IMG/VR virus record: IMGVR_UViG_3300028805_000047 | DNA from: a virus | Lineage: Duplodnaviria; Heunggongvirae; Uroviricota; Caudoviricetes | Direction: 5' to 3' (one strand) | Length of the DNA stretch: 19,076 bases | Shown here: piece by piece, positions 1 through 19,076 of the stretch | Numbering within the stretch: the stretch's first letter is position 1 | How the letters are laid out: every line of letters begins with the position of its first letter | Program-made: the position numbers and the translations under genes | The notes under the pieces: model-generated | What the model was told of the DNA's origin: nothing | What the model saw: the letters and a program-made list of their open reading frames with translations, nothing else | Databases searched by the model: none

Positions 1-3000
1 TACGAGACTTATATAGGTTATAATTCAACATTTTTGTAAGGTTTTCTACAAAATCTGTATTGTTGATTATATAGTCAGTCAATCTGTTATTAAATAAGAA
101 GAATAATTGTACTTGATTGTCATTTTCTATATAAAGCAAGTCCTTATAATCTATTTTATAAAGTAGGTCATTTACATCAGATGCTTTTATTTCCAAACTA
201 CCAAGACTGAAATTGTCAATATATATTTTATCAGGAATATTTACAATTCTTGATGAAAAATATGCTGATGACTCTTTCATATCAATATTAATTGTCTGAT
301 TTTCAAAAACTTTTGATTTTGATGATACAAAATTTGTAGTACGAATAAAGTAATCATTATCAAAATTACTATGAAGTATGTTTATTTGTCTGAAATCAAT
401 TGGATATTTTTCTTCAGTGTAATATCTTGTATCAATGTCAATCTTTGTAGTTCCATTAATAAGTCTGTGATAACCTTCACTAATCATAAATGGAAAATAT
501 ACTTCTGTTGGACGAACAACAAGGTTTATAAACGTATTTGACTTACATAAGAATTTTGTAGGATTCGAATTGGATGAATTTGTAAAGAAAATAATATCCT
601 TTGCTTGTGGTTCGTATTCACCATTATATCTTTTTATGTTAATCAATGAAGGTAATTCTTTTTTCTGTATGTCACAATATGTATATACGTGGTTGTTTGT
701 AGTAGCCGTCTTACTACAAGGTTCGTAAAAATCATTGATTATTATATCCTGAGGATATTCTATTGATATGTCAAGGACTGGTGCTTCTTCAGTCCCTCCA
801 ACAGAATACATCAAAAAGTCTTTCGTATTGATTCTACTTACAAAGTTGTATGCGTTCTTATGGAAATAGGACTGAGTATACAAACTTGATGTTGATGGAG
901 TATTTGTAAAATAAAATTCAGCAGATATTATGTCATCTGTTATTTCATCTGATATTGTAAGCGAGAAGTAATTATTTTCAATTTTTTTGAAAAGACACTT
1001 ATCTGGATCATCAATTACAGTACCGTTTGAAAGATTAAGTTTTATAGATACTTCATCAGTACCATTTTGATTTTTATTAAGATATGCGCTGAACATATAA
1101 TTATCAATGGTACTGAATACATGCTCTGAACCATCTTTAATTTTGTTTATATCTACTTTTAACAACATTTCAAGTTCAGTTCTTGAAAGCTTTTGAATGT
1201 TTTTAGGTATATAGAATATATTATTTGACTTATGTGCAACCATGTATATCAGTGTCCTTGTAAAATTATATTCATTAAACTGAATATTGTATGAAGGATC
1301 TTCTGATGACTCTGATTCAGAATCTTCATTCCATGTCTGCAGAATTTTAAAGAATTGGAGGAATAAGACATATTTTTTATCATGATTGACAATACAAATA
1401 GGTGTATTAAAGTCTATTGAGTTATCAGTATTGAATATAGGTATGTTAAGTATTGTCAATTTATAGTTTAAGAAATAGTCTGAAAGTTCGCTTATTGTTT
1501 GTTTATCATCTATTGTCTTTTGTTTAACAATGAATTTCAAACCTTTTAGCAGACATTCAAGATTGTTTCCAGATTTTATGATAAGCTTATAGAAATCATT
1601 ATACAAATATTCAGGATATTCTTTTTCAAATAAGTCATAATAAATGTCTTCATCTGCAGTGAATAAATCTACCCAATCTTCAATTGACAAGAATTTCCAA
1701 GAAAAATCATCTTCTGAATCGCTAAGTAATTTTGTAGTTGAAAAATGTTTTGAAGCATTTATATATAATCTATTTTGTTTATTATATTTGTTAAGATAAA
1801 AACCTACGTCATGAGTATAATCATATAAAGATGTGTCATTCATGTCAAGGTTTTGACAAATATTATTATGTCTGAATATTTTTGAAAAGTTCAAATTTAT
1901 ATTATACATCAAAGCATCAAGGCTTCTGTCTTTATATGAAAATAATGTAATTGCCTTTGCTGTTTTATTTGTAAATGACAGTTCAGGTATTGCAAGCTCT
2001 TCAAAAAAGTTATATTCAGAATTAAGACTTTTATTGTTTGTATCAAGTAATTGATTGCAATATGCAGATGATTTTATTTCATCAGCATTCATAATAAGGT
2101 TTGATGACAAAACAACCTTTTCTTTATCAGCTAAATCAAGTGTTGCAAGCAGGTAATAATCTTGATCAATTAAATATGGCCTAGTCTGTTTTATATCAGA
2201 ACCATATCTCTGATCTATATCATTATTATTATACTTAATTTCTATTTTCTCTGTTTCAGGATTTTCAGTATATCCATGTGGTATTGAAAATTTTAAATAT
2301 GTCGGTTCATTTGATAAATTTGAGTTATCAATTAAAATTGATGTATCAGTTACTACTGGATATGACTCAATAATATCCTGTTTTAATGATGGTGATAATA
2401 TAGATGTGTCTATATCCTCAACATGATTTTCATTTATTTGATTATCTATATTCAGTACTGTATCAATTTCAGTTTTTAAAGCCGTATCATTACAGACTTC
2501 TGAAATTATGTAATCATTAAATGAAAAAATATCTCTTACAGGCATAAAACTCAGCATACCTGAATAAGGATAAAATTTTGAATAAATTTTTATTTGGTCT
2601 TGATTTTCAAGAATTGGTGATTCAAGCTCGAGGAATAAATAATGAGCAAGTTCTTGTCTGTCATTGTAATTTTCATTAGTTTCAAACATATCCATATTAT
2701 ATTCCATATTAGGAACTAATACAGGAGTATCATTTATTGAAACATATGAATTAAGAATTTTTACATATTCTCCATTAACATTGATATATTTTTCTTCTGA
2801 TTTAAGGTTGTCGAAAATATGTAATAAATCTATATTGACAATTGCTGTTTTCAGTCTGTCATCGGTGCCTCCTACAAAATTTAGCAATAACCCAGATTCA
2901 AGGATACTATAAGAAGATGTTCCTATAATTTCAGCATTGTCTAAAAAATTTTTACTTGTTATTACTTGTATTGATTTATGCTTGCTGTCATTTATATTTC

Positions 3001-3457
3001 TTATACAGACTGTTATATTTTCTCCGTCATCATAATAGAAAACTTTTATCCAAGATTCAGAACTGTTTACAGCATCGACAAAATGCGGAATATCGTAATT
3101 TGTAAGGTTTTCAATGTTCAATGTCATATATTCATCTTCAGATTCTTCATATAAAGAATCACAAACTTTTATATATGCATTGTCTGAAAAAATATAGTCA
3201 GAATTTACTTTGAAACAAAATACGTCGTGTGAAGGATTTTGTAGTTTGAATCTTATTGATGCCGATATTGTTTTATGCTGCATCGATACAAATTTTTCAA
3301 TATCAACAGATTTTTCCTTAAAGGTAAAAGCTTTGCCTATAAGACTGCTGCCTAAACTGTCAAGAGTCTCAACTTCATGTAAGTTTCCATCTTTATCTGT
3401 TAAAGTATAAAAACCTTTATTTATAGTATCTTTTTCTTTAAGGTAATCCATTGTCAT
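1..3457 (-). CDS. Large probable virion structural protein, 3'-partial (>1152 aa, runs off window edge)
   Basis: Hand translation of the minus strand from ATG at 3457 (MTMDYLKEKDTINKGFYTLTDKDGNLHEV...) stays open to the window edge (...NYNLYKSR). It is absent from the ORF track, probably because no stop lies in the window. The structural role is inferred from size and from co-orientation with the baseplate-hub-like gene. Confidence 0.8.
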   Translation of the reverse strand, partial: MTMDYLKEKDTINKGFYTLTDKDGNLHEVETLDSLGSSLIGKAFTFKEKSVDIEKFVSMQHKTISASIRFKLQNPSHDVFCFKVNSDYIFSDNAYIKVCDSLYEESEDEYMTLNIENLTNYDIPHFVDAVNSSESWIKVFYYDDGENITVCIRNINDSKHKSIQVITSKNFLDNAEIIGTSSYSILESGLLLNFVGGTDDRLKTAIVNIDLLHIFDNLKSEEKYINVNGEYVKILNSYVSINDTPVLVPNMEYNMDMFETNENYNDRQELAHYLFLELESPILENQDQIKIYSKFYPYSGMLSFMPVRDIFSFNDYIISEVCNDTALKTEIDTVLNIDNQINENHVEDIDTSILSPSLKQDIIESYPVVTDTSILIDNSNLSNEPTYLKFSIPHGYTENPETEKIEIKYNNNDIDQRYGSDIKQTRPYLIDQDYYLLATLDLADKEKVVLSSNLIMNADEIKSSAYCNQLLDTNNKSLNSEYNFFEELAIPELSFTNKTAKAITLFSYKDRSLDALMYNINLNFSKIFRHNNICQNLDMNDTSLYDYTHDVGFYLNKYNKQNRLYINASKHFSTTKLLSDSEDDFSWKFLSIEDWVDLFTADEDIYYDLFEKEYPEYLYNDFYKLIIKSGNNLECLLKGLKFIVKQKTIDDKQTISELSDYFLNYKLTILNIPIFNTDNSIDFNTPICIVNHDKKYVLFLQFFKILQTWNEDSESESSEDPSYNIQFNEYNFTRTLIYMVAHKSNNIFYIPKNIQKLSRTELEMLLKVDINKIKDGSEHVFSTIDNYMFSAYLNKNQNGTDEVSIKLNLSNGTVIDDPDKCLFKKIENNYFSLTISDEITDDIISAEFYFTNTPSTSSLYTQSYFHKNAYNFVSRINTKDFLMYSVGGTEEAPVLDISIEYPQDIIINDFYEPCSKTATTNNHVYTYCDIQKKELPSLINIKRYNGEYEPQAKDIIFFTNSSNSNPTKFLCKSNTFINLVVRPTEVYFPFMISEGYHRLINGTTKIDIDTRYYTEEKYPIDFRQINILHSNFDNDYFIRTTNFVSSKSKVFENQTINIDMKESSAYFSSRIVNIPDKIYIDNFSLGSLEIKASDVNDLLYKIDYKDLLYIENDNQVQLFFLFNNRLTDYIINNTDFVENLTKMLNYNLYKSR

Positions 3458-3468
3458 GTCATATAATT

Positions 3469-4551
3469 TTAGTCCGCAAGAATTGTCACTCTTTTAGCAT
3501 TGTCATCTTTAGAATTTACTATATAGCTTGAACTTAATTTGTCTGAATTAAGTGATTCATCACATTTAAAATTTACAATCTTGAATCCTGTGTTATATAT
3601 TGGATCAGTACTTACAAAATTATTCTTCCTAATAGAAAGTTTCTCAAATTCAATATTATTACAGTACATCGCGAAATATCTATTTACTTCAAAGTCATCA
3701 GCATTTTCATCGTCAAACATTATTTCAATATTTAAGATATTAGCCAATACCATATTGTTTGAATAGAACAGTTCTGAAAGACGTCCATTTTCTACATTCA
3801 GGCATAAGTCATTTCTAATAATCGTAGATATATCAACTTTTCTTGACGACATGCTTCCAGAAAGGTAATCAATGCCTCTGATATAAATGTAAGGTTGGTT
3901 GACAAGAAGAGGTGAATCATAAAATTCTTTTTGATTTACATATCTTCTTATATACCTGCCAAACTTTGTATTGTCTGTAATGTTTATTGTTTTGACAATT
4001 TGCATTTGTCTTACAATTTCTTTATTTGACATTGTGTATATTCCTGTTTCAGAACTTTCTGAATCTTCAGAATTTTCATAATTATAGTTAGTGTTGCAGG
4101 CACCTGGAATCTTAAAAATTACGATATATTCAGGAAGTTGTTTTTTCAAGTATATTGGAGCTTCGACTGATATTCCTGCACCGTATACTGACTTATTTAC
4201 AAGTGAGCTTTTCATAGCGTAAAATCTTTCAAACTGATTATATGCTCTTGATGTAAATTGACTGTTTGCCGATACCTGTTTAAGCTGGTATGCAATCGTA
4301 TTCGGCAGTAATGATTTATTTTGAGTATAAAATTCATATAGGTCCTCATTATAGTAAGATGTTTCAGCATTGACACCATAATATGAGTACATTGTTTTTG
4401 ACAATGTTGGATTTGCCTGATATGACCTTAAAAATACTGAATCATTTTCAGCATTGTATACAAGCTTTATATTTGTTGTCAATCTAGGATTTGTTCTTAA
4501 AATCATATAAGAACTTGAATCGTATATTTTATCGTAATTTTCAGTATTCAT
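3469..4551 (-). CDS. Hypothetical, probable virion protein (360 aa); possibly the N-terminal part of the downstream large protein
   Basis: ORF track protein (MNTENYDKIYDSSSYMILRTNPRLTTNIKL...VNRYFAMYCN...). A TATAAATA box lies 25 nt upstream. Its 3' end overlaps the open frame of the next ORF by 25 nt. Confidence 0.75.
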   Translation of the reverse strand: MNTENYDKIYDSSSYMILRTNPRLTTNIKLVYNAENDSVFLRSYQANPTLSKTMYSYYGVNAETSYYNEDLYEFYTQNKSLLPNTIAYQLKQVSANSQFTSRAYNQFERFYAMKSSLVNKSVYGAGISVEAPIYLKKQLPEYIVIFKIPGACNTNYNYENSEDSESSETGIYTMSNKEIVRQMQIVKTINITDNTKFGRYIRRYVNQKEFYDSPLLVNQPYIYIRGIDYLSGSMSSRKVDISTIIRNDLCLNVENGRLSELFYSNNMVLANILNIEIMFDDENADDFEVNRYFAMYCNNIEFEKLSIRKNNFVSTDPIYNTGFKIVNFKCDESLNSDKLSSSYIVNSKDDNAKRVTILAD

Positions 4552-4575
4552 TTATATATAAAGATAAACCTTTAT

Positions 4576-4583
4576 TATTTATA
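4576..4583 (-). promoter_or_regulatory. T4-type late promoter candidate (TATAAATA)
   Basis: Plus-strand tatttata at 4576-4583 reads TATAAATA on the minus strand. It overlaps the stop of 4579..6039 and lies 25 nt upstream of the ATG at 4551. It matches the T4 gp55 late consensus, but the 8-mer is not rare in AT-rich DNA. Confidence 0.5.
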
Positions 4584-6039
4584 ACTGAAATTTTACAGAC
4601 GGTTTCATTTCACGTCTGTTAAGTATGAGTTCCTCTTTCATAATGCCGTTATTACTATTGTATAATAATTTTATGCCTGTAACGACATACCAGCCTGAAA
4701 GAGATTCATTATATACCTGCATATTTTTATCCGTTGATGATTCCAAACCTTCATCTATACTTGTCAGCCTTACTGTTTTATCATCATTGTCATCTTTATC
4801 TGTTGATTTGGTTGCAGACACAAGAGCAGAGTTTGTGTCATAAAGGTCAACATATAATTTTGAATATAATGTTATTGCGGGATTATAACTTGATAAACGG
4901 ACCTTAAGCCCGAATGATTTACAGAAAGACAGGTTAAAATTATTTTGAACACCTGCAAAATGATAATTCTTGTGGACGTTATCGCATAAAAATCCGAAAT
5001 CCGTAAAAGCGATATTGTCATCCCTTAAATTGTCTTCTACTTCAGAGTTTACAAGTCTCGATTTCGAAATCGGAATCATCGTTTCTGAAGCATTTGTTAT
5101 AGGGTCGACATATTCAGAAATAAATTCATTGCTGTCATAATCGTAGTATTGCACATATTTTTTATATCCTTCGGATGTTTGGTTCCTCATTATTGTCTCA
5201 TATTTTTCGAAATAGTTGTTCCAAATATCTTCTGATATTTTATTTGTAATCATGTACTCCACTTCTTTTGTCTGATCAGATTCTTCAAATATTTTGTCAA
5301 CAGGTATTTGTGTCTTGAATACCTTCATAGTTTTATTTGTTTTTCTGTCAGTCTGTTCAAACAATCTGTTTACCTCTACATAATTCAAATCATAAAAATA
5401 ATCAATAAATCCTGTTATAAATGAATTGTCGTCTATATAAGAATGATTTAAAGTATTTTCTATAAACGAATCGCAGTTCGCATTTGAGTTTATCCAAATC
5501 TGTTCATCATTTGAGCTTTCAACATTTGAAGAAAATCCAAGCTTATATTTTCTTGCAATAGATGCAAGGGCATTAAAGCTCGTATCTTTTATACTTTCTG
5601 ATGTCCTCTTCATAAAATCAGGAACTCGAAGCTTGCCGTTTACGCTTCTTACCCTCATAGTTGAATGTTCATAAGTATATGTCCTCAATACTGTACACGA
5701 GGTTACTGTAAAATCGCATCTAATCGGCAATAGGTCATGTGATGTCTGAGGTGCTATATAAATTGAGATTACAGAATCATTCGTAATCATATAATCACTA
5801 TCGAATGTATTTTGTAAATCTTTGAATTCTATCTTTACAGTAGGTATGAATGACGAACAGGACAATTCAAATATATTAATATCAGTATTCGATAAAGTAA
5901 TACCGTTTATTGATATTATTGGAAGAATAGCCGACGCCGTAACCTGACTGTCTGTTGATGTCAGCTTGTCAGGCACTGAAAGGTCTCTTAATTTTAAAGT
6001 TGAAGCAAATATTTGAACAATATCGTAAGAATTTGTCAT
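4579..6039 (-). CDS. Probable baseplate hub protein (T4 gp27 / P2 gpD-like), 486 aa
   Basis: Beta-rich N-terminus (PIISINGITL...IFEL..SSFIPTVKIEFKD) and C-terminal LSGWYVVTGIKLLY...ELILNRRE, which resembles the SGxY[LV][IV]xx[IV]xH end motif of baseplate hub proteins. Size is compatible. Recognised by eye only. Confidence 0.5.
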   Translation of the reverse strand: MTNSYDIVQIFASTLKLRDLSVPDKLTSTDSQVTASAILPIISINGITLSNTDINIFELSCSSFIPTVKIEFKDLQNTFDSDYMITNDSVISIYIAPQTSHDLLPIRCDFTVTSCTVLRTYTYEHSTMRVRSVNGKLRVPDFMKRTSESIKDTSFNALASIARKYKLGFSSNVESSNDEQIWINSNANCDSFIENTLNHSYIDDNSFITGFIDYFYDLNYVEVNRLFEQTDRKTNKTMKVFKTQIPVDKIFEESDQTKEVEYMITNKISEDIWNNYFEKYETIMRNQTSEGYKKYVQYYDYDSNEFISEYVDPITNASETMIPISKSRLVNSEVEDNLRDDNIAFTDFGFLCDNVHKNYHFAGVQNNFNLSFCKSFGLKVRLSSYNPAITLYSKLYVDLYDTNSALVSATKSTDKDDNDDKTVRLTSIDEGLESSTDKNMQVYNESLSGWYVVTGIKLLYNSNNGIMKEELILNRREMKPSVKFQL

Positions 6040-6050
6040 TGCTTATAAAA

Positions 6051-7016
6051 TTAGGTTAATAATAATGTTCTACGTTTTTTAGGCTGTGAAATACTGTCGT
6101 TATTCACATCATTGAAAATTTGTACTTCTGATTCTGAAGATTCTACAATGTCATTATCACATATAATTTGTAATTCTGATTCTTCATCAGCTGCAGCATA
6201 TTCAGATTCTGTAATTATTTCTGATTCTTCAATGAGTTCTGATTCTTCAATGAGTTCTGATTCAGATTCTTCATTTGTAATATATTCTGAATCTTCTGAC
6301 TCTTCAGTTGTTTCAGAGTCTTCAATAACCTCTGATTCTTCAATAAGTTCATATTTTTCAGAATCTTCTTCAAAGGTTTCGGTTATTTCGGAATCTTCAA
6401 TATCTTCTGATTCTTCAACTGGTCGTTTTCCTAATGACAGTATTACCTCCTCAATATTAGTCAATCTTTGTTCGATACTAGAAAATACTGAACTAAAATT
6501 AGTTGTATTTGGTTTTTCCTGAATTGGTTCGACAGGTTTTTCCTGAATAGTTTCAGAAGGTTCTTTATCATCATTTACAATAATGCTTCTTGCGACAGCT
6601 GTAAGCAATAAAGTAACAATTGGAAGAATTGCGCCTGAAATATATGCAATAAATACTTTTTGTGACTGTACATCAATATCAGTAAAGAATATACTTACAA
6701 TACTTTGTGTGAACGCAAGCATTTGGCCTTCTGAACTATTTTGACAAATATACAAATAGCATGAATAAACATTACCAATAACCTGTATTAGAGTGAATAT
6801 TGTCAGCAACATCCAAGCAACTACATTTTTATTGTTTTTTAATATAGTCAGCAATGTCGCTGCAAGCCCGATTTCAAATGTAGCAGCAAGTATATAGGTA
6901 AGAGCTGTGGAATTTGAAATGATGAAAAAATCTATCGCATGTATTAAGCTGACAGACATTGTACATATGTACAACAGAATAAATAATATAACTAATGGTT
7001 GTTTAAAATTTTTCAT
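6051..7016 (-). CDS. Multi-pass membrane protein with Glu/Ser-rich repetitive C-terminal tail (321 aa)
   Basis: About four hydrophobic segments in residues ~7-145 (LVILFILLYICTMSVSLIHAIDFF; LTYILAATFEIGLAATLLTIL; VVAWMLLTIFTLIQVIGNVY; VFIAYISGAILPIVTLLLTAVA), a short coiled coil, then E/S/I repeats and a basic tip KKRRTLLLT. Confidence 0.75.
   Translation of the reverse strand: MKNFKQPLVILFILLYICTMSVSLIHAIDFFIISNSTALTYILAATFEIGLAATLLTILKNNKNVVAWMLLTIFTLIQVIGNVYSCYLYICQNSSEGQMLAFTQSIVSIFFTDIDVQSQKVFIAYISGAILPIVTLLLTAVARSIIVNDDKEPSETIQEKPVEPIQEKPNTTNFSSVFSSIEQRLTNIEEVILSLGKRPVEESEDIEDSEITETFEEDSEKYELIEESEVIEDSETTEESEDSEYITNEESESELIEESELIEESEIITESEYAAADEESELQIICDNDIVESSESEVQIFNDVNNDSISQPKKRRTLLLT
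6219..6263. repeat. 18-bp in-frame tandem repeat (TTCTGATTCTTCAATGAG x2.5) within a longer degenerate array
   Basis: Exact copies at 6219-6236 and 6237-6254, partial copy at 6255-6263. Degenerate TCTGATTCTTCA-like units occur across about 6125-6420. Encodes (E)SELIE repeats on the minus strand. Confidence 0.85.
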
Positions 7017-7050
7017 ATATATTGTTTTTTATAATAAATTCATTCAAATA

Positions 7051-7058
7051 TATTTATA
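7051..7058 (-). promoter_or_regulatory. T4-type late promoter candidate (TATAAATA) in the divergent intergenic region
   Basis: Plus-strand tatttata at 7051-7058 reads TATAAATA on the minus strand, 35 nt upstream of the first minus-strand gene (ATG at 7016). Confidence 0.55.
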
Positions 7059-7067
7059 GATAAAGTC

Positions 7068-7277
7068 ATGGATAAAAAATATGTAGTTAAGTCAAATGCG
7101 GGTATAAATCTTTGTGTTGGAACACTGAGAGAATGTGTTGCATTTATGAATAACAGCGGAAATTGTACAAAGGTGGAAGATTCAGAAGAGGTGAAATACA
7201 TGCTTACCGACCTTATAAAGTCTAAAAATAAGCTTATCAATATTGGAGAGTACTGTTATTTACAACCTTTTAAGTAA
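7068..7277 (+). CDS. Hypothetical protein (69 aa)
   Basis: ORF track; first gene of the plus-strand cluster; tightly packed with the next gene. Confidence 0.65.
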   Translation: MDKKYVVKSNAGINLCVGTLRECVAFMNNSGNCTKVEDSEEVKYMLTDLIKSKNKLINIGEYCYLQPFK

Positions 7278-7278
7278 T

Positions 7279-7632
7279 ATGAGCGATATAGTTATTACAG
7301 ATGAAGAAAGAGAAAGAGCGATGTCCATTATTGAAAGATATCGTTTTTTTGATGAAAAATTTGAGGAACTTCATAAACGTACAAATAGTTATCGTGAAGA
7401 ATTATTAGCTTTGAAGGAATCTCCAGACAATGAAGAAAGTAATAAAAAAGCTGATGAATTGCAGGCAAATTTGAAAATAACAATGGATGAATATGATTCA
7501 GTTTTAATTGAATTCACAGAAGTAATGAATGAAGATGAGAAATTTGAAAAGGAACTTGTTGAAAAATACGGACCTAAAATCCTCGATGCGAATTATCTGA
7601 AATTAAATATTTTTAACAAGTTGTCATATTAA
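7279..7632 (+). CDS. Hypothetical coiled-coil protein (117 aa)
   Basis: ORF track 7243..7632. Start moved to the ATG at 7279 (MSDIVITDEE...), 1 nt after the upstream TAA, which removes a 35-nt overlap. Charged helical composition. Confidence 0.7.
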   Translation: MSDIVITDEERERAMSIIERYRFFDEKFEELHKRTNSYREELLALKESPDNEESNKKADELQANLKITMDEYDSVLIEFTEVMNEDEKFEKELVEKYGPKILDANYLKLNIFNKLSY

Positions 7633-7704
7633 AAGCTAAATAAGAAAAATTATAATTAGCTTTGGAGGCATTAAAGCTAAATAAGAAAAATTATAATTAA
7701 CTTT
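7632..7704. repeat. 32-bp direct repeat x2 (period 41) with internal inverted arms; candidate tandem promoter or hairpin element
   Basis: AAAGCTAAATAAGAAAAATTATAATTAGCTTT at 7632-7663 and a copy with one mismatch (…TTAACTTT) at 7673-7704. AAAGCTAA and TTAGCTTT are reverse complements. Confidence 0.85.
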
Positions 7705-7725
7705 AACATATTAAAAATTAAAATT

Positions 7726-8013
7726 ATGGAAGTAAAGACAAAATTTAATATCGGTGACAAAGTGTATATTCTTTGTTCTGGTTCCATTTTTAAAGCCATT
7801 ATTTCTGAAGTTATTATCAATTGTAAGCATTGTAGCAATTCAATACGTTACAAAGTATGTATTTTTGACAGTATTGAAGGAGCTGTAATCTTGGATGATC
7901 TGTATAATGAAAATTCAATATATGATTCTATTGATAACTTATGTAAGGCTTTGGAAGATAATGCTACTATAATGAATCCAGAAGAATATCAATCTTGTAA
8001 AACAAAAATATAA
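7726..8013 (+). CDS. Hypothetical small phage protein (95 aa), TKFNIGDKV N-terminal motif, CxxC
   Basis: ORF track; A-rich leader TTAAAATTATG; MEVKTKFNIGDKVY resembles a common small phage protein start; contains CKHC. Confidence 0.7.
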   Translation: MEVKTKFNIGDKVYILCSGSIFKAIISEVIINCKHCSNSIRYKVCIFDSIEGAVILDDLYNENSIYDSIDNLCKALEDNATIMNPEEYQSCKTKI

Positions 8014-8017
8014 ATTT

Positions 8018-8974
8018 ATGGGTACGACATATAAAAAATTATCAGAAATTGAACACGTCCTTGAAAGACCTGGAATGTATATCGGTTCTACAACTACTGA
8101 AAGAGCTACAAAATTTGTATATGATTCAAGCATTAAAAAATTTCGTAAGAAAGAGGTTGATTGGAATGAGGGTTTCATGAAAATTTATGATGAAATCGTA
8201 ACAAACTCATTTGATGAATCTAAGAGGAACGGAAAACTTAAAGTAATTGAGGTGACTGTTAATAAGTCAGAAAATACAATTTCTGTTTATGATGACGGCG
8301 GAATAAGGATTGACAAGTTTGATAAGACAGATAAACGATATATTCCAGATGTGATATTTTCAAGCCTCAGGGCAGGCTCTAACTTTAATGATGATGAAGT
8401 ACGGCTTGGTGCGGGTACTAATGGAATTGGCAGTGTCTGTACAAATATATTTTCTAAAAGCTTTACGGTAGAAACAGCTGATTCTTCAAAGATGTTCAAA
8501 GTGACATACTTGAATAATTTATCAGGAAAAACTGAGCCTGTTGTCAAGCAAAGTAAAAAGCATTTTACAAGAATTACGTATGTTCCTGATTTAGAACGAT
8601 TTGGAATGTCTGAAATTAGTGATGATTTTATTGACCTGATGAAATCAAGATTGATAAACATTGCTTCTCAGAATTCAAACCTTACAGTAAAGTTCAATGA
8701 TGACAGTTTTCATTTTTCAAAGTTTCAAGAGTATGCAAGTCTGTATCTACAGGAATTACCAAATCATTTAAAGAATATTGAAGATACTTCAGATGACATT
8801 GAAGAAAATAATTCAAATGATTCAGAAACAGAAAATGTCGTTGAAAATCAGGTAGAAGAAATTAAAGAACCTGAACAAAATGTATCTGAGAATAAAGAAG
8901 AACAGACTAATACGGTTGAAGACGGTTTTGATATAGATTCAATAGGCTCAGATGAACCAATTCCGTTATTTTAG
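8018..8974 (+). CDS. Type II DNA topoisomerase ATPase (GHKL) domain only, T4 gp39/GyrB-like, with ~75-aa acidic C-terminal tail
   Basis: Motifs EHVLERPGMYIG, DEIVTNSFDE, DDGGI, IFSSLRAGSNF, GTNGIGSVCTNIFS, TRITYVPDLERF. Homology appears to stop near FQEYASLY (aa ~243). No transducer or TOPRIM motifs follow. Confidence 0.9.
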   Translation: MGTTYKKLSEIEHVLERPGMYIGSTTTERATKFVYDSSIKKFRKKEVDWNEGFMKIYDEIVTNSFDESKRNGKLKVIEVTVNKSENTISVYDDGGIRIDKFDKTDKRYIPDVIFSSLRAGSNFNDDEVRLGAGTNGIGSVCTNIFSKSFTVETADSSKMFKVTYLNNLSGKTEPVVKQSKKHFTRITYVPDLERFGMSEISDDFIDLMKSRLINIASQNSNLTVKFNDDSFHFSKFQEYASLYLQELPNHLKNIEDTSDDIEENNSNDSETENVVENQVEEIKEPEQNVSENKEEQTNTVEDGFDIDSIGSDEPIPLF

Positions 8975-9023
8975 GTAGAAATAACAAAAATATTGTTTAT
9001 TATTAGAAACAAATTTATATTTT

Positions 9024-10358
9024 ATGGATATAAACGATTACATTAAATTTATTTCAGAGAATAAAACTGAAAGAGAATGCGTTTCAGCAGCTGAAGAAAT
9101 TCTTAAAGCATCTGGTTTTAAGGAACTTGAATTACAATTATATAATTCATTAAAACCTGGTGATAAAATTTATTTTAAGAATAAGAATAAAAATATCGCA
9201 GCTTTTGTAATTGGAAATAACCCAAGATTAAATCTTTTAGGAGCACACATCGACAGTCCAAGACTTGATGTAAAGTCAATGCCTTTGTATGAAGACACGA
9301 ATATGGCATATTTCGATTTGCAATATTATGGAGGAATTAAACAGTATCAATGGGTTACAAGACCTCTTGCAATACGTGGTGTTGTTTATACAATGGAAGG
9401 TGATAAAAAGTATATAAACCTTGGTGACTATGATGATGACTTCACATTTTGCATAACAGACTTGTTGCCACACCTTGATAAGACGAGGGATAAGAGAACA
9501 GCTTCTGAAACCGTCAAGAGTGAAAATCTAGATTTGCTTTTGGCTGCAGAAGTTCATACAAATAGTGAAAGAATTGATCCTGTTAAAAGTAACATACTTG
9601 ACATTCTTAATAAAAAGTATGACATATATGAAGAAGACCTTTTGTCTGCTGAACTTGAAGTAGTGCCTGCAGGAAAAGCATCTTTTGTAGGACTTGACAG
9701 ACAAATGGTTGGAGGATATGGACAAGATGACAGAGTTTGTGCTTGGACGTCTTTAATGGCTTTAAAAGATCTTGCCGACAATTATCCAATTCCTTCAAAA
9801 ACTTGCGGATGTATTCTTGTTGACAAGGAAGAAATCGGTTCAACTTGCGCAACTGGCAGTAATTCAAGATGGCTTGAAGACGTATTAAGAGTTGTTGTAT
9901 TCTCTCAGGGATCACAAGATGAAATAACATTTGCAAATATTTTGTCAAATTCAAATATGCTGAGTTCTGACGTGACTGCAGCTTATGACCCATTATATGC
10001 TGACGTATCTAACAAATCGATGTCGGCAAAACTTGGTGGCGGGTTCACGCTTAGAAAATATAACGGAGGACGAGGAAAATCAGGAGGAGCTGACGCGAAT
10101 CCTGAATATATTGCGACAATTCGTGCGATATTAAACCGTTCAAATGTTACATATCAGTTTGACACAATGGGTAAAGTTGATGTTGGTGGTGGAGGTACAA
10201 TTGCTTCAATAGTATGTCAACTTAATATAAACGTACTTGATTCAGGTGTTCCTGTACTTAATATGCACAGTCCGTTTGAAATAACTCACATAGTCGATAT
10301 TGAAAATGCCTACAAAGGATATTTGGCATTCCTTCAATCAAATGAAGATATTTATTAG
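9024..10358 (+). CDS. M18 family metalloaminopeptidase (aminopeptidase 1 / ApeA-like), 444 aa
   Basis: GAHIDSPRLDVK, YYGGIKQYQW, GQDDRVCAW, DKEEIGS, SSDVTAAYDP, GKVDVGGGGTI, GVPVLNMHSPFE. The expected His/Asp/Glu/Asp/His dinuclear-metal ligands appear present, and the protein is full length. Confidence 0.92.
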   Translation: MDINDYIKFISENKTERECVSAAEEILKASGFKELELQLYNSLKPGDKIYFKNKNKNIAAFVIGNNPRLNLLGAHIDSPRLDVKSMPLYEDTNMAYFDLQYYGGIKQYQWVTRPLAIRGVVYTMEGDKKYINLGDYDDDFTFCITDLLPHLDKTRDKRTASETVKSENLDLLLAAEVHTNSERIDPVKSNILDILNKKYDIYEEDLLSAELEVVPAGKASFVGLDRQMVGGYGQDDRVCAWTSLMALKDLADNYPIPSKTCGCILVDKEEIGSTCATGSNSRWLEDVLRVVVFSQGSQDEITFANILSNSNMLSSDVTAAYDPLYADVSNKSMSAKLGGGFTLRKYNGGRGKSGGADANPEYIATIRAILNRSNVTYQFDTMGKVDVGGGGTIASIVCQLNINVLDSGVPVLNMHSPFEITHIVDIENAYKGYLAFLQSNEDIY

Positions 10359-10360
10359 TT

Positions 10361-10570
10361 ATGTCAGGAGAAACTTGTAAAGTTGGAAGATATTGGCTGT
10401 TAGGAGCTCAAAGAAGAGGTGGCATTTTAGCAGGTGTAAATGGTGAGTATATAAACTTTTATATCATAAAAGGCAGTCAACTTGACAATGAGGAAAACCT
10501 GAAAATATTTAGAGAGTTTCTTAAAAACAGATATTCATATACATTAAAAATAGCTTACAAACAATTATGA
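10361..10570 (+). CDS. Hypothetical protein (69 aa)
   Basis: ORF track; starts 2 nt after the peptidase stop; ATGA overlap with the next gene. Confidence 0.65.
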   Translation: MSGETCKVGRYWLLGAQRRGGILAGVNGEYINFYIIKGSQLDNEENLKIFREFLKNRYSYTLKIAYKQL

Positions 10571-11019
10571 CTATGGATAAGGAAAGTATTAATCAAATTA
10601 AGATTCTTAAAAACATATTGTCTAAATTTACTAAACAAGTAAATGAAATTCAGCAAAAAATTCTTGAAATTGAATCAAGTAATGATGAGACATTTGATAA
10701 AGAAAGCATAGAAGAAGATGTACTTTATAATGCTTATCAGAATTGGTTTGTAAGTAAAAGGTCTGCTATACCGTATATTGCAAAATGTAAGGATTTGTCA
10801 TATAAGATTGATTCTGTTGTTATGTTTCAAGGTATGGTAAACGATTATAAGACATTTAAGACATTACTTTCTGAAATTATGAAAGAAAATGAATTAAAGC
10901 TTATATACCTGCCTTCTCCAAAATATCCAGATGTATTTAAGACATCACTTGATGGTGTAGAACAAAACCTTGATTTCGACAGGTTCTTTAAAAAATTTAC
11001 AAGTAAGCCTAAAGATTAA
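10567..11019 (+). CDS. Hypothetical protein (150 aa), N-terminal coiled coil
   Basis: ORF track; translationally coupled by ATGA overlap. Confidence 0.7.
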   Translation: MTMDKESINQIKILKNILSKFTKQVNEIQQKILEIESSNDETFDKESIEEDVLYNAYQNWFVSKRSAIPYIAKCKDLSYKIDSVVMFQGMVNDYKTFKTLLSEIMKENELKLIYLPSPKYPDVFKTSLDGVEQNLDFDRFFKKFTSKPKD

Positions 11020-11024
11020 ATATT

Positions 11025-11357
11025 ATGAAAATTAAATTTAAAGACTGTAATATTACTTTGACAAGGAATAACTTGATAAAGATTTCAGAAGAAATTGGTG
11101 AAAGATTTTATGCAAAGACAATTCAGACAATAACTCATAAAAATTCTTGGGATAAGAAATATGACTCAGTAACAAACAGGGTCGAGCCGATTAATGTTCG
11201 TAAAACTAGTAATGGACATATTGTTATTAGAAGTCATGATTTTGATTATACAGATTGTGTATTTGAAAATAATGACCTTATAAAAAAGACTGTAATTGTA
11301 GGTTTATGTCCTATTGAATTTGGTGTAAACGAAAATGAATGGAAAATTAATTTTTAA
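11025..11357 (+). CDS. Hypothetical protein (110 aa)
   Basis: ORF track; 5 nt after the upstream stop; its TAA is the first triplet of repeat cassette 1. Confidence 0.7.
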   Translation: MKIKFKDCNITLTRNNLIKISEEIGERFYAKTIQTITHKNSWDKKYDSVTNRVEPINVRKTSNGHIVIRSHDFDYTDCVFENNDLIKKTVIVGLCPIEFGVNENEWKINF

Positions 11358-11441
11358 AATTTTTTAATTTTTTGATCCAACTTTCAAAAAAGTCGTATTA
11401 TATTTACCTCAACAAATTAACATTAAAATTAAACAGAGATG
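11355..11441 (+). promoter_or_regulatory. Repeated promoter/leader cassette, copy 1 (sigma70-like early promoter)
   Basis: TAA, A/T tract, TTGATC (11372-11377), 18-nt spacer, TATTAT (11396-11401), ATTTACCTCAACAAATTAA...TTAAAATTAAACAGAG, ATG. Near-identical to copy 2. Confidence 0.8.
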
Positions 11442-12059
11442 GAAAAGAATGTAGAAATAAAGAAACTAGTTTGTAAATCATTATTGGAAATGATTGAAAA
11501 CGGTTGTACTGTAGAACAGTTTAAAGAAGAACTTATTAAAAAATGTCAGCAATATAATCTTGATTTATATTTGTCAAGACCTATTTTTGTTGCAGGTCTG
11601 ACAAGTATTGAATACTTAGAAAAACTCACAGATGATGTAAAAGAATTGTCACTTTCCTATAATTTGACTGAAGATGCTAAAATAACCCTCATATTTTCTG
11701 AACTTGGATTTGAAAATATGCGCCGTGGGGAAGTCTGTAGAATGTTTAATATCGATGATATTGGAGAATTTTCAGACGGTTATCATACATTTAATTCTTT
11801 GTATGAACAAAGATGTGTCTTATTTGCAGCACTTGTTAAAGCCTACAAGGATAAGACCTGGAAATCAAGAAGACATTCAGACGGTGAAAAATGTTTTGAT
11901 GGAAACTGGTTTATAGTCGGTATTGAAACACCTGAAGGACAATATACATATCATTATGAAAATAAAGATTGGGAATTGTTTGATTGTAAAGAGATTGAAC
12001 GTGCTCATGAATGGGACGGACATACTGACAAGGATGTTAAAAGGCTTTTAAGTTTGTAA
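11439..12059 (+). CDS. WDGH-motif phage domain protein (206 aa) with extra N-terminal helical domain
   Basis: The C-terminal ~100 aa carry SDGYHTFNSLY..R, WKSRRHSDG, WFIVGIETPEGQYTYHY, WDGHT, a pattern I recognise as a widespread phage domain of unknown function. Confidence 0.75.
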   Translation: MEKNVEIKKLVCKSLLEMIENGCTVEQFKEELIKKCQQYNLDLYLSRPIFVAGLTSIEYLEKLTDDVKELSLSYNLTEDAKITLIFSELGFENMRRGEVCRMFNIDDIGEFSDGYHTFNSLYEQRCVLFAALVKAYKDKTWKSRRHSDGEKCFDGNWFIVGIETPEGQYTYHYENKDWELFDCKEIERAHEWDGHTDKDVKRLLSL

Positions 12060-13941: not shown

Positions 13942-15252
13942 ATGATAGAGTTAATAGGAAAATATACGACAGCAAAAATTTATGCTGAGACAGTAGAAGA
14001 AGGTGTATATCAACAAGTATATGATATAATCAATTGTCCTGCATTTGAAAATCAAAAAGTAGTTTGTATGCCTGATGTGCATGTCGGTGCATCAGGACCT
14101 TGTGGACTTGTCGCTACAATTGGTGACTATGTTTGTCCTGAACATATCGGAGTCGATATTGGGTGTTCTATTTCTATGCTGGTTCTTGATAAGAATATTC
14201 CTGAAGATTTATTTGCAGATTTTGAACATAAGATAAAAATGCAAATACCTTTTGGTATGAATATTCATAAAAAGACAATGTTTGATGAAAAAGACTTTTA
14301 TAAGTTCTTGACAACCAATTTCAACAAATATCGTAACTGCTGGCCTGAAATGCTTAAAGATCTTCCTGATTCAGTAAATGAATCATGGGTTATCAGCCAG
14401 TTAAAACGTCTGAATATGGATCCAGCTGTTTTTTATCATTCAATTGGTACAGTCGGAGGTGGAAATCATTTTATTGAATATGATGAAACAGATGACAAAA
14501 ATATTGCAGGTATCACACTACATTTCGGTTCTCGAAATTTCGGCGTCAAGGTTTGCAAGTATTGGATGTCAAAAACAACTTCCCCATATTCAAGTCAGGA
14601 AATGAAGGAGCTTGTAGGTGAATTCAAGAAAGATTATATCTCTAAGCATAAGGATATGAAAGATTTTCAAAATGCTCTTAAAGAATATAATGAGCATCTT
14701 ATGAAAAACCATATTAACGGATATTTGACAGGCGAAAAGCTTAAAGGATATTTAATGGATATGTGTTTCGCACAACTTTATGCAGCATATAATCATAAAA
14801 CAGTAAGCAAGATTATATCAGATATTTTATTGAAATATGGTATAAAGGTTAAAGAAACAATTATGACAACTCATAATTATATTGACTTGAAAGACCATGC
14901 ACTTAGAAAATCTGCAATTTCTGCATATTTAGACGAAACAATTCTTGTACCGTTCAATATGCGTGACGGTGTTGCTGTCTGTAAAGGAAAATCAAATTCT
15001 GAATGGTTGAATTCATGCTCACATGGTGCAGGTCGTAAAATGTCCCGTTCACAGGCTAAGAAAAATATCTCGATTCAGGAATTCAAAGATTCTATGAAAG
15101 ACGTTTATTCAACAACTGTATGTGAAGGAACTATTGACGAATCCCCACAGGCATATAAGGACACTGACGAAATCAAGAACTTGATTACTCAGACTTGTAC
15201 AATTCAATATATGATGAAACCAAGAATTAACATAAAAGCAACTGAATCGTAA
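13942..15252 (+). CDS. rtcB: RtcB-family RNA ligase (3'-phosphate/2',3'-cyclic phosphate to 5'-OH), 436 aa
   Basis: MPDVHVG, GVDIGCS, GTVGGGNHFIE, HFGSRNFG, THNYID, SCSHGAGRKMSR, DESPQAYKD. The metal-binding Asp/Cys/His residues and the guanylylated His motif appear intact. Confidence 0.95.
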   Translation: MIELIGKYTTAKIYAETVEEGVYQQVYDIINCPAFENQKVVCMPDVHVGASGPCGLVATIGDYVCPEHIGVDIGCSISMLVLDKNIPEDLFADFEHKIKMQIPFGMNIHKKTMFDEKDFYKFLTTNFNKYRNCWPEMLKDLPDSVNESWVISQLKRLNMDPAVFYHSIGTVGGGNHFIEYDETDDKNIAGITLHFGSRNFGVKVCKYWMSKTTSPYSSQEMKELVGEFKKDYISKHKDMKDFQNALKEYNEHLMKNHINGYLTGEKLKGYLMDMCFAQLYAAYNHKTVSKIISDILLKYGIKVKETIMTTHNYIDLKDHALRKSAISAYLDETILVPFNMRDGVAVCKGKSNSEWLNSCSHGAGRKMSRSQAKKNISIQEFKDSMKDVYSTTVCEGTIDESPQAYKDTDEIKNLITQTCTIQYMMKPRINIKATES

Positions 15253-18908: not shown

Positions 18909-19076
18909 AAACGAAAATTAAAGAAATTATTAAGGAGGTAGATAATCTACGTCATTTATTAACATTTTCTCAATTCACAATAGATTTGATTGAAGAATTT
19001 AGCGAATCAGTAGAAGAAACTGATGTAAATGAAGAAACTACAGCTGGTGCTATTTGCTATAAGATTGATACAGTCC
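18905..19076 (+). CDS. Hypothetical protein, 3'-partial
   Basis: ATG at 18905 overlaps the upstream TGA; the frame is open to the window end (MKTKIKEIIKEVDNLRHLLTFSQFTIDLIEEFSES...). Confidence 0.65.
   Translation, partial: MKTKIKEIIKEVDNLRHLLTFSQFTIDLIEEFSESVEETDVNEETTAGAICYKIDTV

What the first reader, a model, noticed from the sequence alone, without database searches (positions are those of the whole stretch)
8018..8974. Stand-alone topoisomerase II ATPase domain cut at the GHKL/transducer boundary
Seen: all GHKL nucleotide-binding motifs are intact, but homology ends at about aa 243 (FQEYASLY). An acidic tail and a TAG stop follow, and the next gene is an unrelated peptidase; I found no continuation nearby in other frames. 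Established: in GyrB, T4 gp39 and eukaryotic topo II the GHKL domain is followed by a transducer domain that supplies the QTK-loop lysine needed for efficient ATP hydrolysis, and the known T4 split (gp39/gp60) falls later, within TOPRIM. Inference: this is a new split point of a multi-subunit phage topoisomerase, or a repurposed ATP-binding/dimerising module such as a decoy, dominant-negative inhibitor of host gyrase or anti-defence protein. Intact motifs argue against simple decay.
Basis: partly seen in the sequence, partly recalled or inferred. Interest (0 to 1): 0.75.

Follow-up and report, generated by a model that had tools for sequence, protein, structure and literature searches.

The report
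Phage topoisomerase II with detached ATPase
This rumen jumbo phage makes the ATP-binding head of its DNA-untangling enzyme (topoisomerase II) from a separate gene, 13 kb from the gene for the rest of that subunit; this natural cut point was not described in the papers I could search, and it recurs in related uncultured phages.

Summary
Window 8018-8974 encodes a 318-aa protein whose first ~245 residues are a complete GHKL ATPase domain of the phage topoisomerase II large subunit. A 75-aa acidic tail and a TAG stop follow.

- **Partner genes:** the same genome carries one complementary transducer-TOPRIM gene (373 aa, QTK loop and TOPRIM acidic residues intact) 13 kb away. A gp52-like cleavage subunit lies 55 kb away.
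- **Selection:** all three genes are under strong purifying selection between two strains (dN/dS 0.011, 0.003, 0.039).
- **Relatives:** 80 of 80 IMG/VR relatives are fused. At least five other metagenomic lineages have the identical cut: two with a Hef-like homing endonuclease between the halves, others with 12 nt, 367 nt or a 69-aa ORF.
- **Complex model:** it places the two halves as in fused enzymes (0.81, best control 0.00), which may reflect likeness to solved structures.
- **What is special here:** the halves are dispersed, and the tail is a variable acidic spacer with a conserved tip, SDEPIPLF.

The decoy/inhibitor reading is unlikely. This scan noted the same cut before on other DNA (e1-5391581). 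Verdict: a new variant of a known kind (T4 39/60-type genes-in-pieces).

The parts
8018..8974 (+). Gene for the stand-alone GHKL ATPase subunit of topoisomerase II (318 aa, protein P0001)
   Evidence: ORF. PHROG 543 E 3.7e-66 over profile 26-293. 1pvg 3.6e-46. Whole-gene dN/dS 0.077 against strain L100.
8018..8746 (+). GHKL (Bergerat-fold) ATPase core, aa 1-243, including the N-terminal dimerisation strap
   Evidence: AF2 pLDDT above 90 over most of 1-245. dN/dS 0.011, 38 synonymous against 2 non-synonymous changes. Invariant columns listed.
8192..8206 (+). N box: catalytic Glu59 to Mg-binding Asn63 (DEIVTN)
   Evidence: E59 and N63 are invariant in alignment A2. They align with FDEILVN of yeast Top2.
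8291..8305 (+). G1 box D92-D-G94-G95-I96 (adenine-binding Asp)
   Evidence: G94, G95 and I96 are invariant and D92 is at least 90% conserved. P97R and H101F are unusual substitutions just after it.
8414..8431 (+). G2 box / ATP lid G133-T-N135-G136-I-G138
   Evidence: G133, N135, G136 and G138 are invariant. The lid region 120-135 has low pLDDT, as expected for a mobile lid.
8720..8770 (+). Last helix of the GHKL domain (aa 235-251, SKFQEYASLYLQELPNH), predicted to dock on the transducer beta-sheet of the partner protein
   Evidence: Confident contacts of residues 235-251 with partner residues 10-30 and 71-75. Other split GHKL proteins end here: P0003, P0006, P0009.
8747..8947 (+). Acidic, disordered, fast-evolving spacer (aa 244-310)
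   Evidence: Whole tail net charge -21. pLDDT below 50 from residue 262. All 13 amino-acid differences in the tail between strains fall here, with no indels. Tail dN/dS 0.36. Absent from all relatives.
8948..8971 (+). Conserved C-terminal tip SDEPIPLF (aa 311-318)
   Evidence: Two synonymous and no non-synonymous changes between strains. It ends in Pro-x-Phe after acidic residues. The resemblance to SSB C-terminal tips is recalled from memory and was not tested.
8972..8974 (+). TAG stop codon. The next start (M18 peptidase, 9024) is in another frame
   Evidence: Reading through TAG would add only 23 codons before a TAA (read).

Best explanation
The gene encodes the ATP-binding and dimerising (GHKL) module of the phage's own type IIA topoisomerase as a separate polypeptide. 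The enzyme is made from three dispersed genes:

- the GHKL subunit (window 8018-8974);
- a transducer-TOPRIM subunit (373 aa, G000:C1:24089-25210, same strand, 13 kb away and outside the window, just upstream of a DnaB-like helicase gene);
- a gp52-like cleavage subunit (449 aa, C1:66018-67367).

Inferred mechanism. The last helix of the GHKL protein packs non-covalently on the first beta-strands of the transducer. This rebuilds the usual ATPase region, and the QTK-loop lysine (K88 of the partner) reaches into the ATP site in trans. ATP-driven dimerisation of two GHKL subunits closes the N-gate. The signal passes across the non-covalent joint to the TOPRIM/gp52-like DNA gate, giving a probable 2+2+2 hetero-hexamer.

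Inferred origin. A cut in the variable GHKL/transducer linker of the kind made by free-standing homing endonucleases, since Hef-like genes still sit in this cut in two relatives. The endonuclease was then lost and the genome rearranged.

The 75-aa tail is most likely a flexible acidic tether. Its conserved tip, SDEPIPLF, would dock on a partner. That partner is unknown; the rest of the enzyme or a replisome protein are candidates. The tether could compensate for the lost covalent link and for separate expression.

Shown: the gene content, the cut point, conservation and recurrence. Inferred: assembly, activity, origin and the tail's role.
For: - **Complementary halves:** the PHROG 543 profile hits exactly two places in the 131.7-kb record, positions 12-292 and 271-645. 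The second is a 373-aa ORF with DNA_gyraseB, Toprim and TOPRIM_C domains. tblastn finds no other copy of either half.
- **Third subunit:** gp52-like gene, PF00521 1.3e-85 and PHROG 551 2e-132, with the catalytic R115-Y116.
- **Catalytic residues kept:** E59, N63, D92 and the G loops in the GHKL protein; Q86-T87-K88, E171-G-D-S-A and D247/D249/D251 in the partner. The joined sequence departs from the consensus at 16 of 118 columns that are at least 90% conserved, within the range of fused homologues (Lak phage 21).
- **Purifying selection** between two strains (dS 0.2-0.34): GHKL core 0.011, partner 0.003, gp52-like 0.039.
- **Same cut elsewhere:** L005/L006 and L097+L103 have a Hef-like homing endonuclease between the halves. 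L096 has a 12-nt gap. L111 has a 367-nt gap. L008/L009 have a 69-aa ORF. L105/L106 carry a stand-alone partner gene with no GHKL gene nearby.
- **Phylogeny:** the window's enzyme sits in a well-supported 18-row clade with 6 split and 12 fused rows.
- **Complex model:** score 0.81 against a best control of 0.00. The mark was reached by 58 of 80 solved complexes and 2 of 110 mismatched pairs. The runs agree in at least 26% of contacts, and the partner's pLDDT is at least 72. The interface is GHKL 214-219 and 235-251 plus ATP-site residues 55-69, against partner residues 1-30, 71-75 and 87. Fused ATPase domains have been solved, so this pass may come from memory: it shows likeness, not binding.
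- **Precedent:** the T4 39/60 split by mobA assembles into an active enzyme, and extra residues at that cut are thought to help assembly (PMC11461880, PMC2988022).
Against: - No biochemical or expression data exist. The RNA run held only short contigs, which show nothing about transcription.
- The record is a fragment (131.7 kb; CheckV 43% complete). I could not search the rest of the roughly 255-kb genome for a fused paralogue.
- No homing endonuclease or remnant of one lies next to either half here, so the origin is inferred from relatives.
- The tail made no confident contacts in the complex model, and its middle evolves fast (dN/dS 0.36), so a docking role rests on 8 conserved codons.
- Acidic low-complexity stretches are common in this genome, for example ORF 6051-7016.
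- P97R and H101F replace residues conserved in at least 90% of relatives next to the G1 box.
Confidence: 0.85

Rival explanations
1. Repurposed stand-alone ATP-binding/dimerising module. The protein no longer serves the phage topoisomerase. It would act as a decoy, a dominant-negative inhibitor of host gyrase or topo IV, or an anti-defence factor, with the acidic tail acting for example as a DNA mimic.
For: The gene lies away from the replication genes, among small early-type ORFs, a peptidase and RtcB. It carries a unique 75-aa acidic tail. It has two unusual substitutions next to the G1 box.
Against: The genome has exactly one GHKL-less transducer-TOPRIM gene under very strong constraint (dN/dS 0.003), and that gene would then have no ATPase. 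The residues that contact the transducer in fused enzymes are kept. Relatives with the same cut keep the two halves adjacent, next to the gp52-like gene, and have no tail. The protein is only distantly related to bacterial GyrB (E about 1e-13 to 1e-15, against 1e-46 for Top2-type enzymes).
Confidence: 0.08
2. Decaying remnant. The large-subunit gene was broken by rearrangement, and the two pieces are non-functional leftovers on their way to loss.
For: 80 of 80 IMG/VR relatives and all cultured or huge phages inspected have a fused gene. The window's joined sequence sits on a long terminal branch (0.83 against a median of 0.17).
Against: dN/dS is 0.011 for the GHKL core and 0.003 for the partner at dS about 0.3. 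There are no frameshifts or stops in two strains, and all catalytic motifs are intact. The same cut persists in several independent lineages.
Confidence: 0.03
3. The halves are re-joined after translation or transcription (split intein, trans-splicing, ribosomal bypass), so the mature protein is a normal fused subunit.
For: T4 gene 60 uses translational bypass, and inteins are common in phage replication genes (PMC11461880 and PMC3322345).
Against: The partner ORF starts directly at the first conserved transducer strand (MISIENNDWKV), leaving no room for a C-intein. The tail has no Cys or intein blocks, and the only Pfam hit on the protein is a weak HATPase_c match. The genes are 13 kb apart, with opposite-strand structural genes between them. 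A terminator-like hairpin precedes the partner gene.
Confidence: 0.02
4. Assembly chimera or sequencing error near 8745 created a false stop and tail.
For: None found. The window comes from a metagenome assembly.
Against: A Logan contig, whose sample may or may not be the window's own source, is identical over 11.4 kb. A 2.8-kb contig from another study spans 7999-9300. A 93.5%-identical strain has the same 318-codon ORF without indels.
Confidence: 0.01

Closest known systems
Phage T4 topoisomerase II, genes 39 / 60 / 52 (large subunit split by the mobA homing-endonuclease insertion)
   Same: It is a three-polypeptide type IIA topoisomerase of a T4-related phage, and the large subunit is cut in two where relatives have one gene. 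A free-standing homing endonuclease is associated with the cut (here seen in relatives). Extra non-homologous residues at the cut ends are suspected to help assembly (PMC11461880, PMC2988022).
   Different: T4's cut lies inside TOPRIM, so gp39 keeps GHKL, transducer and part of TOPRIM. Here the cut lies in the GHKL/transducer linker, so the ATP site is completed by a QTK-loop lysine from another polypeptide. T4's pieces are adjacent; here they are 13 kb apart with no endonuclease. PMC11461880 describes T4 as the sole type IIA topoisomerase with three subunits.
T2/T6 gp39 and the fused large subunits of jumbo and huge phages (PDB 8ylu; Xanthomonas phage BUDD, Ralstonia phage RsoM2USA, Lak phages, LR756502)
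   Same: Same family (37-51% identity over the GHKL part), the same catalytic motifs, and the same gp52-like partner.
   Different: Those are single polypeptides of 605-660 aa carrying GHKL, transducer and TOPRIM. None has the acidic tail.
Genes-in-pieces made by homing endonucleases: Aeromonas phage Aeh1 nrdA split by mobE, and gene 43 of phage 25
   Same: An essential enzyme gene is cut into two ORFs that must re-assemble. Function is retained in the studied cases (PMC2988022). Relatives L005 and L097+L103 show the same architecture with a Hef-like endonuclease.
   Different: A different enzyme. In the window's genome the endonuclease is gone and the pieces are dispersed.
Campylobacter phage CP220 topoisomerase II pieces
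   Same: In a cultured phage the two pieces of the large subunit lie far apart: 3896-5350 and 158311-158883, about 23 kb across the start of the circular record.
   Different: The cut is the T4 type: profile positions 27-518 and 478-643, inside TOPRIM.
Acidic C-terminal tails with a terminal aromatic residue on replication proteins (bacterial SSB tip D-D-D-I-P-F; T7 gp2.5 and gp4), recalled from memory
   Same: A disordered acidic tail ending in Pro-x-Phe. The tip is conserved while the spacer varies.
   Different: The tip reads PIPLF, not IPF. It sits on a topoisomerase ATPase module. No binding partner was identified or tested.

Membership tests
Type IIA topoisomerase ATPase module, phage large-subunit family (T4 gp39 / PHROG 543) | Significant profile match to the family | tested here: met
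   PHROG 543 E 3.7e-66. PDB 1pvg 3.6e-46 and T6/T4 gp39 1e-28.
Type IIA topoisomerase ATPase module, phage large-subunit family (T4 gp39 / PHROG 543) | Bergerat-fold motifs: N box (Glu, Asn), G1 (DxGxG) and G2 (GxxGxG), plus the N-terminal strap | tested here: met
   E59, N63, D92, G94, G95, G133, N135, G136, G138, L8, H13 and R17 are all present at invariant or at least 90%-conserved columns.
Type IIA topoisomerase ATPase module, phage large-subunit family (T4 gp39 / PHROG 543) | Transducer domain with the QTK-loop lysine on the same polypeptide | tested here: not met
   Homology ends at profile position 293. The transducer, with Q86-T87-K88, is in a separate 373-aa gene 13 kb away.
Type IIA topoisomerase ATPase module, phage large-subunit family (T4 gp39 / PHROG 543) | TOPRIM domain (E-G-D-S-A, DxDxD) on the same polypeptide | tested here: not met
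   TOPRIM lies in the partner gene: E171, D247, D249, D251.
Type IIA topoisomerase ATPase module, phage large-subunit family (T4 gp39 / PHROG 543) | Cognate gp52/GyrA-type subunit with the catalytic Arg-Tyr in the same genome | tested here: met
   PF00521 1.3e-85 and PHROG 551 2e-132. R115-Y116 aligns with the RY of solved Top2 cores.
Type IIA topoisomerase ATPase module, phage large-subunit family (T4 gp39 / PHROG 543) | ATP-dependent strand passage by the assembled enzyme | not testable with these tools
   Only a complex model is available: 0.81 against a best control of 0.00, and the pass may come from likeness to solved structures.
Genes-in-pieces created by a free-standing homing endonuclease (T4 39/mobA/60 type) | The gene is contiguous in related genomes | tested here: met
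   80 of 80 IMG/VR loci and the cultured or huge phages inspected are fused, 604-705 aa.
Genes-in-pieces created by a free-standing homing endonuclease (T4 39/mobA/60 type) | A homing endonuclease gene lies between the two halves | tested here: not met
   None lies next to either half in this genome. One is present at the identical cut in relatives L005/L006 and L097+L103.
Genes-in-pieces created by a free-standing homing endonuclease (T4 39/mobA/60 type) | Both halves are retained, intact and under purifying selection | tested here: met
   dN/dS 0.011 and 0.003.
Split intein / protein trans-splicing | N-intein at the end of the first piece and C-intein at the start of the second | tested here: not met
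   The tail has no Cys, and the only Pfam hit on the protein is a weak HATPase_c match. The partner starts at the transducer with no extension.
SSB-type C-terminal interaction tip | A disordered acidic tail ending in a conserved hydrophobic tip with terminal Phe that binds partner proteins | tested here: inconclusive
   The tail is acidic (net -21), mostly modelled as disordered, and its tip is conserved between strains. The sequence is PIPLF rather than IPF. No SSB or gp32 gene lies in the record for comparison. Binding was not tested.

The most novel reading that the evidence does not exclude
The detached GHKL module is a regulated, exchangeable subunit. Its flexible acidic tail ends in an SSB-tip-like motif (SDEPIPLF). 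This would tether the module to the transducer-TOPRIM/gp52-like core or to a replisome protein, so that ATP-dependent strand passage is switched on only where and when the ATPase is recruited. It would be a natural type IIA topoisomerase whose ATP site is completed in trans, and whose allosteric coupling runs across a non-covalent, peptide-tethered joint.
Probability: 0.2. Interest if true: 0.7.

Novelty: new variant of a known kind. Interest (0 to 1): 0.5.

Why it matters
Type IIA topoisomerases couple ATP binding in the GHKL domain to DNA-gate opening through the transducer. The transducer's QTK-loop lysine touches the gamma-phosphate. A natural enzyme cut exactly at this joint implies two things: the ATP site can be completed by another polypeptide, and the coupling can cross a non-covalent interface. 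That gives structural and single-molecule workers a ready-made system for separating ATP binding, dimerisation and signal transmission.

It also corrects the view that T4 is the only three-subunit type IIA topoisomerase (PMC11461880). The series of states seen here is: fused gene; endonuclease in the cut; adjacent halves without an endonuclease; dispersed halves with a new tail. It illustrates how selfish endonucleases can turn one gene into a lasting multi-subunit enzyme.

For annotation, stand-alone proteins of about 250-320 aa with only a weak HATPase_c hit in jumbo phages should be checked for a distant transducer-TOPRIM partner before they are called hypothetical or repurposed.

Tried and rejected
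- **Promoter scans:** sigma-70-type scans around both genes found no more sites than shuffled sequence (22 against 18.6; 16 against 18.7). They say nothing about timing. Only the terminator-like hairpin before the partner gene was kept.
- **RNA run X10:** it held only short contigs touching the gene. This is no evidence for or against transcription.
- **Tail contacts in the complex model:** none were confident. This is not evidence that the tail does not bind.
- **Tail against the Hef-like endonuclease of L005:** no similarity.
- **Remnants in the genome:** tblastn of the partner, the endonuclease and the tail found no remnants or extra copies.
- **SSB (PF00436) and gp32 (PF08804):** no match in the 131.7-kb record, so the tip could not be compared with the phage's own SSB.
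- **The 337-aa ORF after the stand-alone partner gene in L105:** I suspected a permuted GHKL gene, but it is unrelated.
- **L110:** this looked like another split, but the GHKL and partner ORFs overlap by 23 nt. It looks like a frameshift rather than this cut, and was left out.
- **Campylobacter phages:** I suspected this cut from PMC3322345, but CP220 has the T4-type cut instead.
- **Direction of change:** whether splitting or re-fusion occurred cannot be decided from the tree. It needs at least 4 changes of state.
- **Cultured phages:** the roughly 2000 phage records with a homologue were not all screened for this cut.
Full report
**1. The observation**

Window 8018-8974 (+) is an ORF of 318 codons ending in TAG. 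Its product (P0001) matches PHROG 543, the phage topoisomerase II large subunit, at E 3.7e-66, but only over profile positions 26-293 of 661. The Pfam HATPase_c match is weak and below the curated cut-off.

Against solved structures, the best matches are the ATPase regions of yeast and human Top2 (1pvg 3.6e-46, query residues 4-256) and T6/T4 gp39 (about 1e-28). Bacterial GyrB is far weaker.

The nucleotide-binding motifs are all present at invariant or nearly invariant alignment columns:
- E59 and N63;
- D92-G94-G95;
- G133/N135/G136/G138;
- the N-terminal strap residues L8, H13, R17, G23.

Conserved sequence ends at about residue 246. A 75-residue tail follows, with net charge -21. AlphaFold2 models residues 1-245 with high confidence and residues 262-318 with pLDDT below 50. 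The downstream gene is an M18 aminopeptidase. tblastn finds no transducer remnant nearby in any frame.

**2. It is not an artefact**

- A Logan contig is 100% identical to window 1-11416. Its sample may or may not be the window's own source.
- A 2.8-kb contig from another study covers 7999-9300 with scattered substitutions and no indel inside the gene.
- A strain from a further run (L100, 93.5% nucleotide identity) has the same 318-codon ORF, tail, stop and neighbours.
- The runs that hold the stretch are sheep and goat gut metagenomes. An earlier scan note describes the genome as a roughly 255-kb T4-related rumen phage.

**3. The rest of the enzyme is in the same genome**

The window lies in a 131.7-kb IMG/VR record.

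- **Two complementary pieces.** The PHROG 543 profile hits that record exactly twice: the GHKL piece (positions 12-292) and a second piece (positions 271-645) at C1:24089-25210 on the same strand.
- **The partner gene.** It is a 373-aa ORF beginning MISIENNDWKV, the first conserved strand of the transducer. It carries DNA_gyraseB, Toprim and TOPRIM_C domains. It keeps Q86-T87-K88, E171-G-D-S-A and D247/D249/D251. A terminator-like hairpin precedes it, and it lies directly upstream of a DnaB-like helicase gene.
- **The third subunit.** A gp52-like gene (449 aa; PF00521 1.3e-85; catalytic R115-Y116) lies at C1:66018-67367.
- **No extra copies.** tblastn finds no other copy of either half and no endonuclease of the relatives' family.

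**4. The pieces are under selection**

I compared the window's strain with the second strain, which supplied L100, L101 and L102 from a single run. The Nei-Gojobori estimates are below.

| Gene or region | dN/dS | Synonymous / non-synonymous changes |
|---|---|---|
| GHKL core (aa 1-243) | 0.011 | 38 / 2 |
| Transducer-TOPRIM gene | 0.003 | 62 / 1 |
| gp52-like gene | 0.039 | 50 / 9 |
| Neighbouring M18 peptidase | 0.056 | 51 / 13 |
| Tail (aa 244-318) | 0.36 | 9 / 15 |

The tail keeps its length. Its last eight codons (SDEPIPLF) show two synonymous and no non-synonymous changes.

Joined together, the two halves deviate from the consensus at 16 of 118 columns that are at least 90% conserved. 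This is within the range of fused homologues, and none of the deviations is in a catalytic motif. P97R and H101F next to the G1 box are the oddest.

**5. Relatives**

All 80 IMG/VR loci found with P0001 (37-51% identity) encode one fused large subunit. The same holds for Xanthomonas phage BUDD, Ralstonia phage RsoM2USA, Vibrio phage Bakedbeans, a Lak phage and the huge phage LR756502.

The identical cut, between ...F-x-D/E-Y-x-x-x-F/Y and the transducer's N-x-W-x-V strand, recurs in metagenomic contigs:

| Locus | Arrangement |
|---|---|
| L005/L006 | GHKL 248 aa, Hef-like homing endonuclease 400 aa, partner 381 aa, gp52-like |
| L097 + L103 | Same endonuclease (73% identical) between the halves |
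| L096 | 12-nt gap between the halves |
| L111 | 367-nt gap; the partner's cluster has 50 member sequences |
| L008/L009 (a distant lineage) | 69-aa Cys-rich ORF between the halves |
| L105/L106 | Stand-alone partner gene flanked by a 5'-3' exonuclease gene and an unrelated ORF, so the halves seem dispersed here too |

In the tree, the window's enzyme falls in a strongly supported 18-row clade holding 6 split and 12 fused rows. The split state needs at least 4 changes, so the cut has been gained or lost repeatedly. The same clade also contains genes broken inside TOPRIM, as in T4 (P0002, P0010, P0021, P0028). None of the other split GHKL proteins has a tail.

**6. Assembly model**

I folded the GHKL protein with the partner protein using family alignments.
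- The score was 0.81, against a best control of 0.00.
- The mark was reached by 58 of 80 solved complexes and 2 of 110 mismatched pairs.
- The runs agree in at least 26% of their contacts, and the partner's pLDDT is at least 72.
- The confident interface is GHKL residues 214-219 and 235-251 plus ATP-site residues 55-69, against partner residues 1-30, 71-75 and 87 (the QTK loop). This is the intramolecular interface of fused enzymes.

Fused ATPase regions have been solved, so this pass shows likeness, not binding. The tail gave no confident contacts.

**7. Interpretation**

The simplest reading is a three-gene type IIA topoisomerase whose ATPase head is a separate subunit. The rivals are unlikely:
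- **Decoy or inhibitor.** This would leave a highly constrained, GHKL-less partner without an ATPase.
- **Decay.** This is excluded by the dN/dS values.
- **Intein, trans-splicing or bypass.** The partner's start, the tail's composition and the 13-kb separation across opposite-strand genes all argue against these.
- **Misassembly.** This is excluded by the other contigs.

The origin by homing-endonuclease insertion is inferred from relatives and from the T4 39/mobA/60 and Aeh1 nrdA/mobE precedents (PMC2988022). The tail's role as a tether with a docking tip is inference from its pattern of conservation.

**8. Comparison with what is known**

- PMC11461880 calls T4 the sole type IIA topoisomerase with three subunits. 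It places T4's cut in TOPRIM, with about 70 extra residues at the cut that may aid assembly.
- The reviews and phylogenomic papers I searched do not describe a GHKL/transducer cut (PMC9752973, PMC7824862, PMC2988022).
- Campylobacter phage CP220 shows that split pieces can be dispersed in a cultured phage, but at the T4-type cut.
- This scan has already noted the endonuclease-bearing form of the present cut on another genome (e1-5391581), and my independent loci agree with it.

The finding is therefore a new variant of a known kind. Its particular features are dispersed halves and an added acidic tail with a conserved tip.

**9. Limits**

- There is no biochemistry.
- Only about half of the genome could be searched.
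- The dN/dS values come from one strain pair.
- Cultured phages were not screened exhaustively.

Noticed in passing
L014 (LR756500.1, 462-kb uncultured huge phage) 3956-7655: The large-subunit gene is interrupted inside TOPRIM by about 1.7 kb that holds a 387-aa ORF. The partner-type match splits into residues 8-172 and 150-369. This looks like a T4-like 39/60-type cut or an intein/endonuclease insertion in a huge phage.
   Followed up: partly
P0002, P0010 (81-kb contig), P0021, P0028: These gp39-like proteins of 526-540 aa keep GHKL and transducer but break off inside TOPRIM with a non-homologous end. They lie in the same clade as the window's enzyme, so this clade is a hotspot for cuts at two different sites.
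   Followed up: partly
L108/L109 (Campylobacter phage CP220, FN667788.1: 3896-5350 and 158311-158883): The T4-type pieces of the large subunit (profile positions 27-518 and 478-643) lie about 23 kb apart across the start of the circular record. The second match has two TAA stops inside it.
   Followed up: partly
L008 7107-7316 and L009 6039-6248: A 69-aa ORF with CxxC...CxxC spacing (zinc-ribbon-like) sits exactly in the GHKL/transducer cut of a distant T4-like lineage, where other phages have a homing endonuclease.
   Followed up: no
L110 2-1988 (DRR595517 contig): A GHKL ORF and a 446-aa transducer-TOPRIM ORF overlap by 23 nt in different frames. This could be a frameshift, whether an error, a programmed shift or a recent break, rather than the linker cut.
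   Followed up: no
window 9024-10358: A full-length M18 aspartyl aminopeptidase (PF02127, 2.2e-82) is encoded by the phage directly after the GHKL gene. It is under purifying selection (dN/dS 0.056). This is an unusual phage cargo gene.
   Followed up: partly
window 13942-15252 and 11439-12059: An RtcB RNA ligase (PF01139, 1.3e-54) and a WDGH-domain protein (PF25311, 2.6e-43) lie in the same plus-strand block of small genes.
   Followed up: no
window 6051-7016 (-): A predicted membrane protein has a long acidic Glu/Ser-rich repeat tail. Acidic low-complexity tails are common in this genome, which tempers any special reading of the topoisomerase tail's spacer.
   Followed up: no
G000:C1:69225-70442 (L099 7226-8443, -): A UvsX-like recombinase ends in an acidic tail with a terminal aromatic residue (...DDVAEVDEELEY). 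It is a second replication/recombination protein of this phage with that kind of C-terminus.
   Followed up: no
window 18973-19076: The last 104 bases of the window lie beyond the end of the 131.7-kb IMG/VR record that holds the rest of the window, so the window was cut from a longer version of the contig.
   Followed up: no
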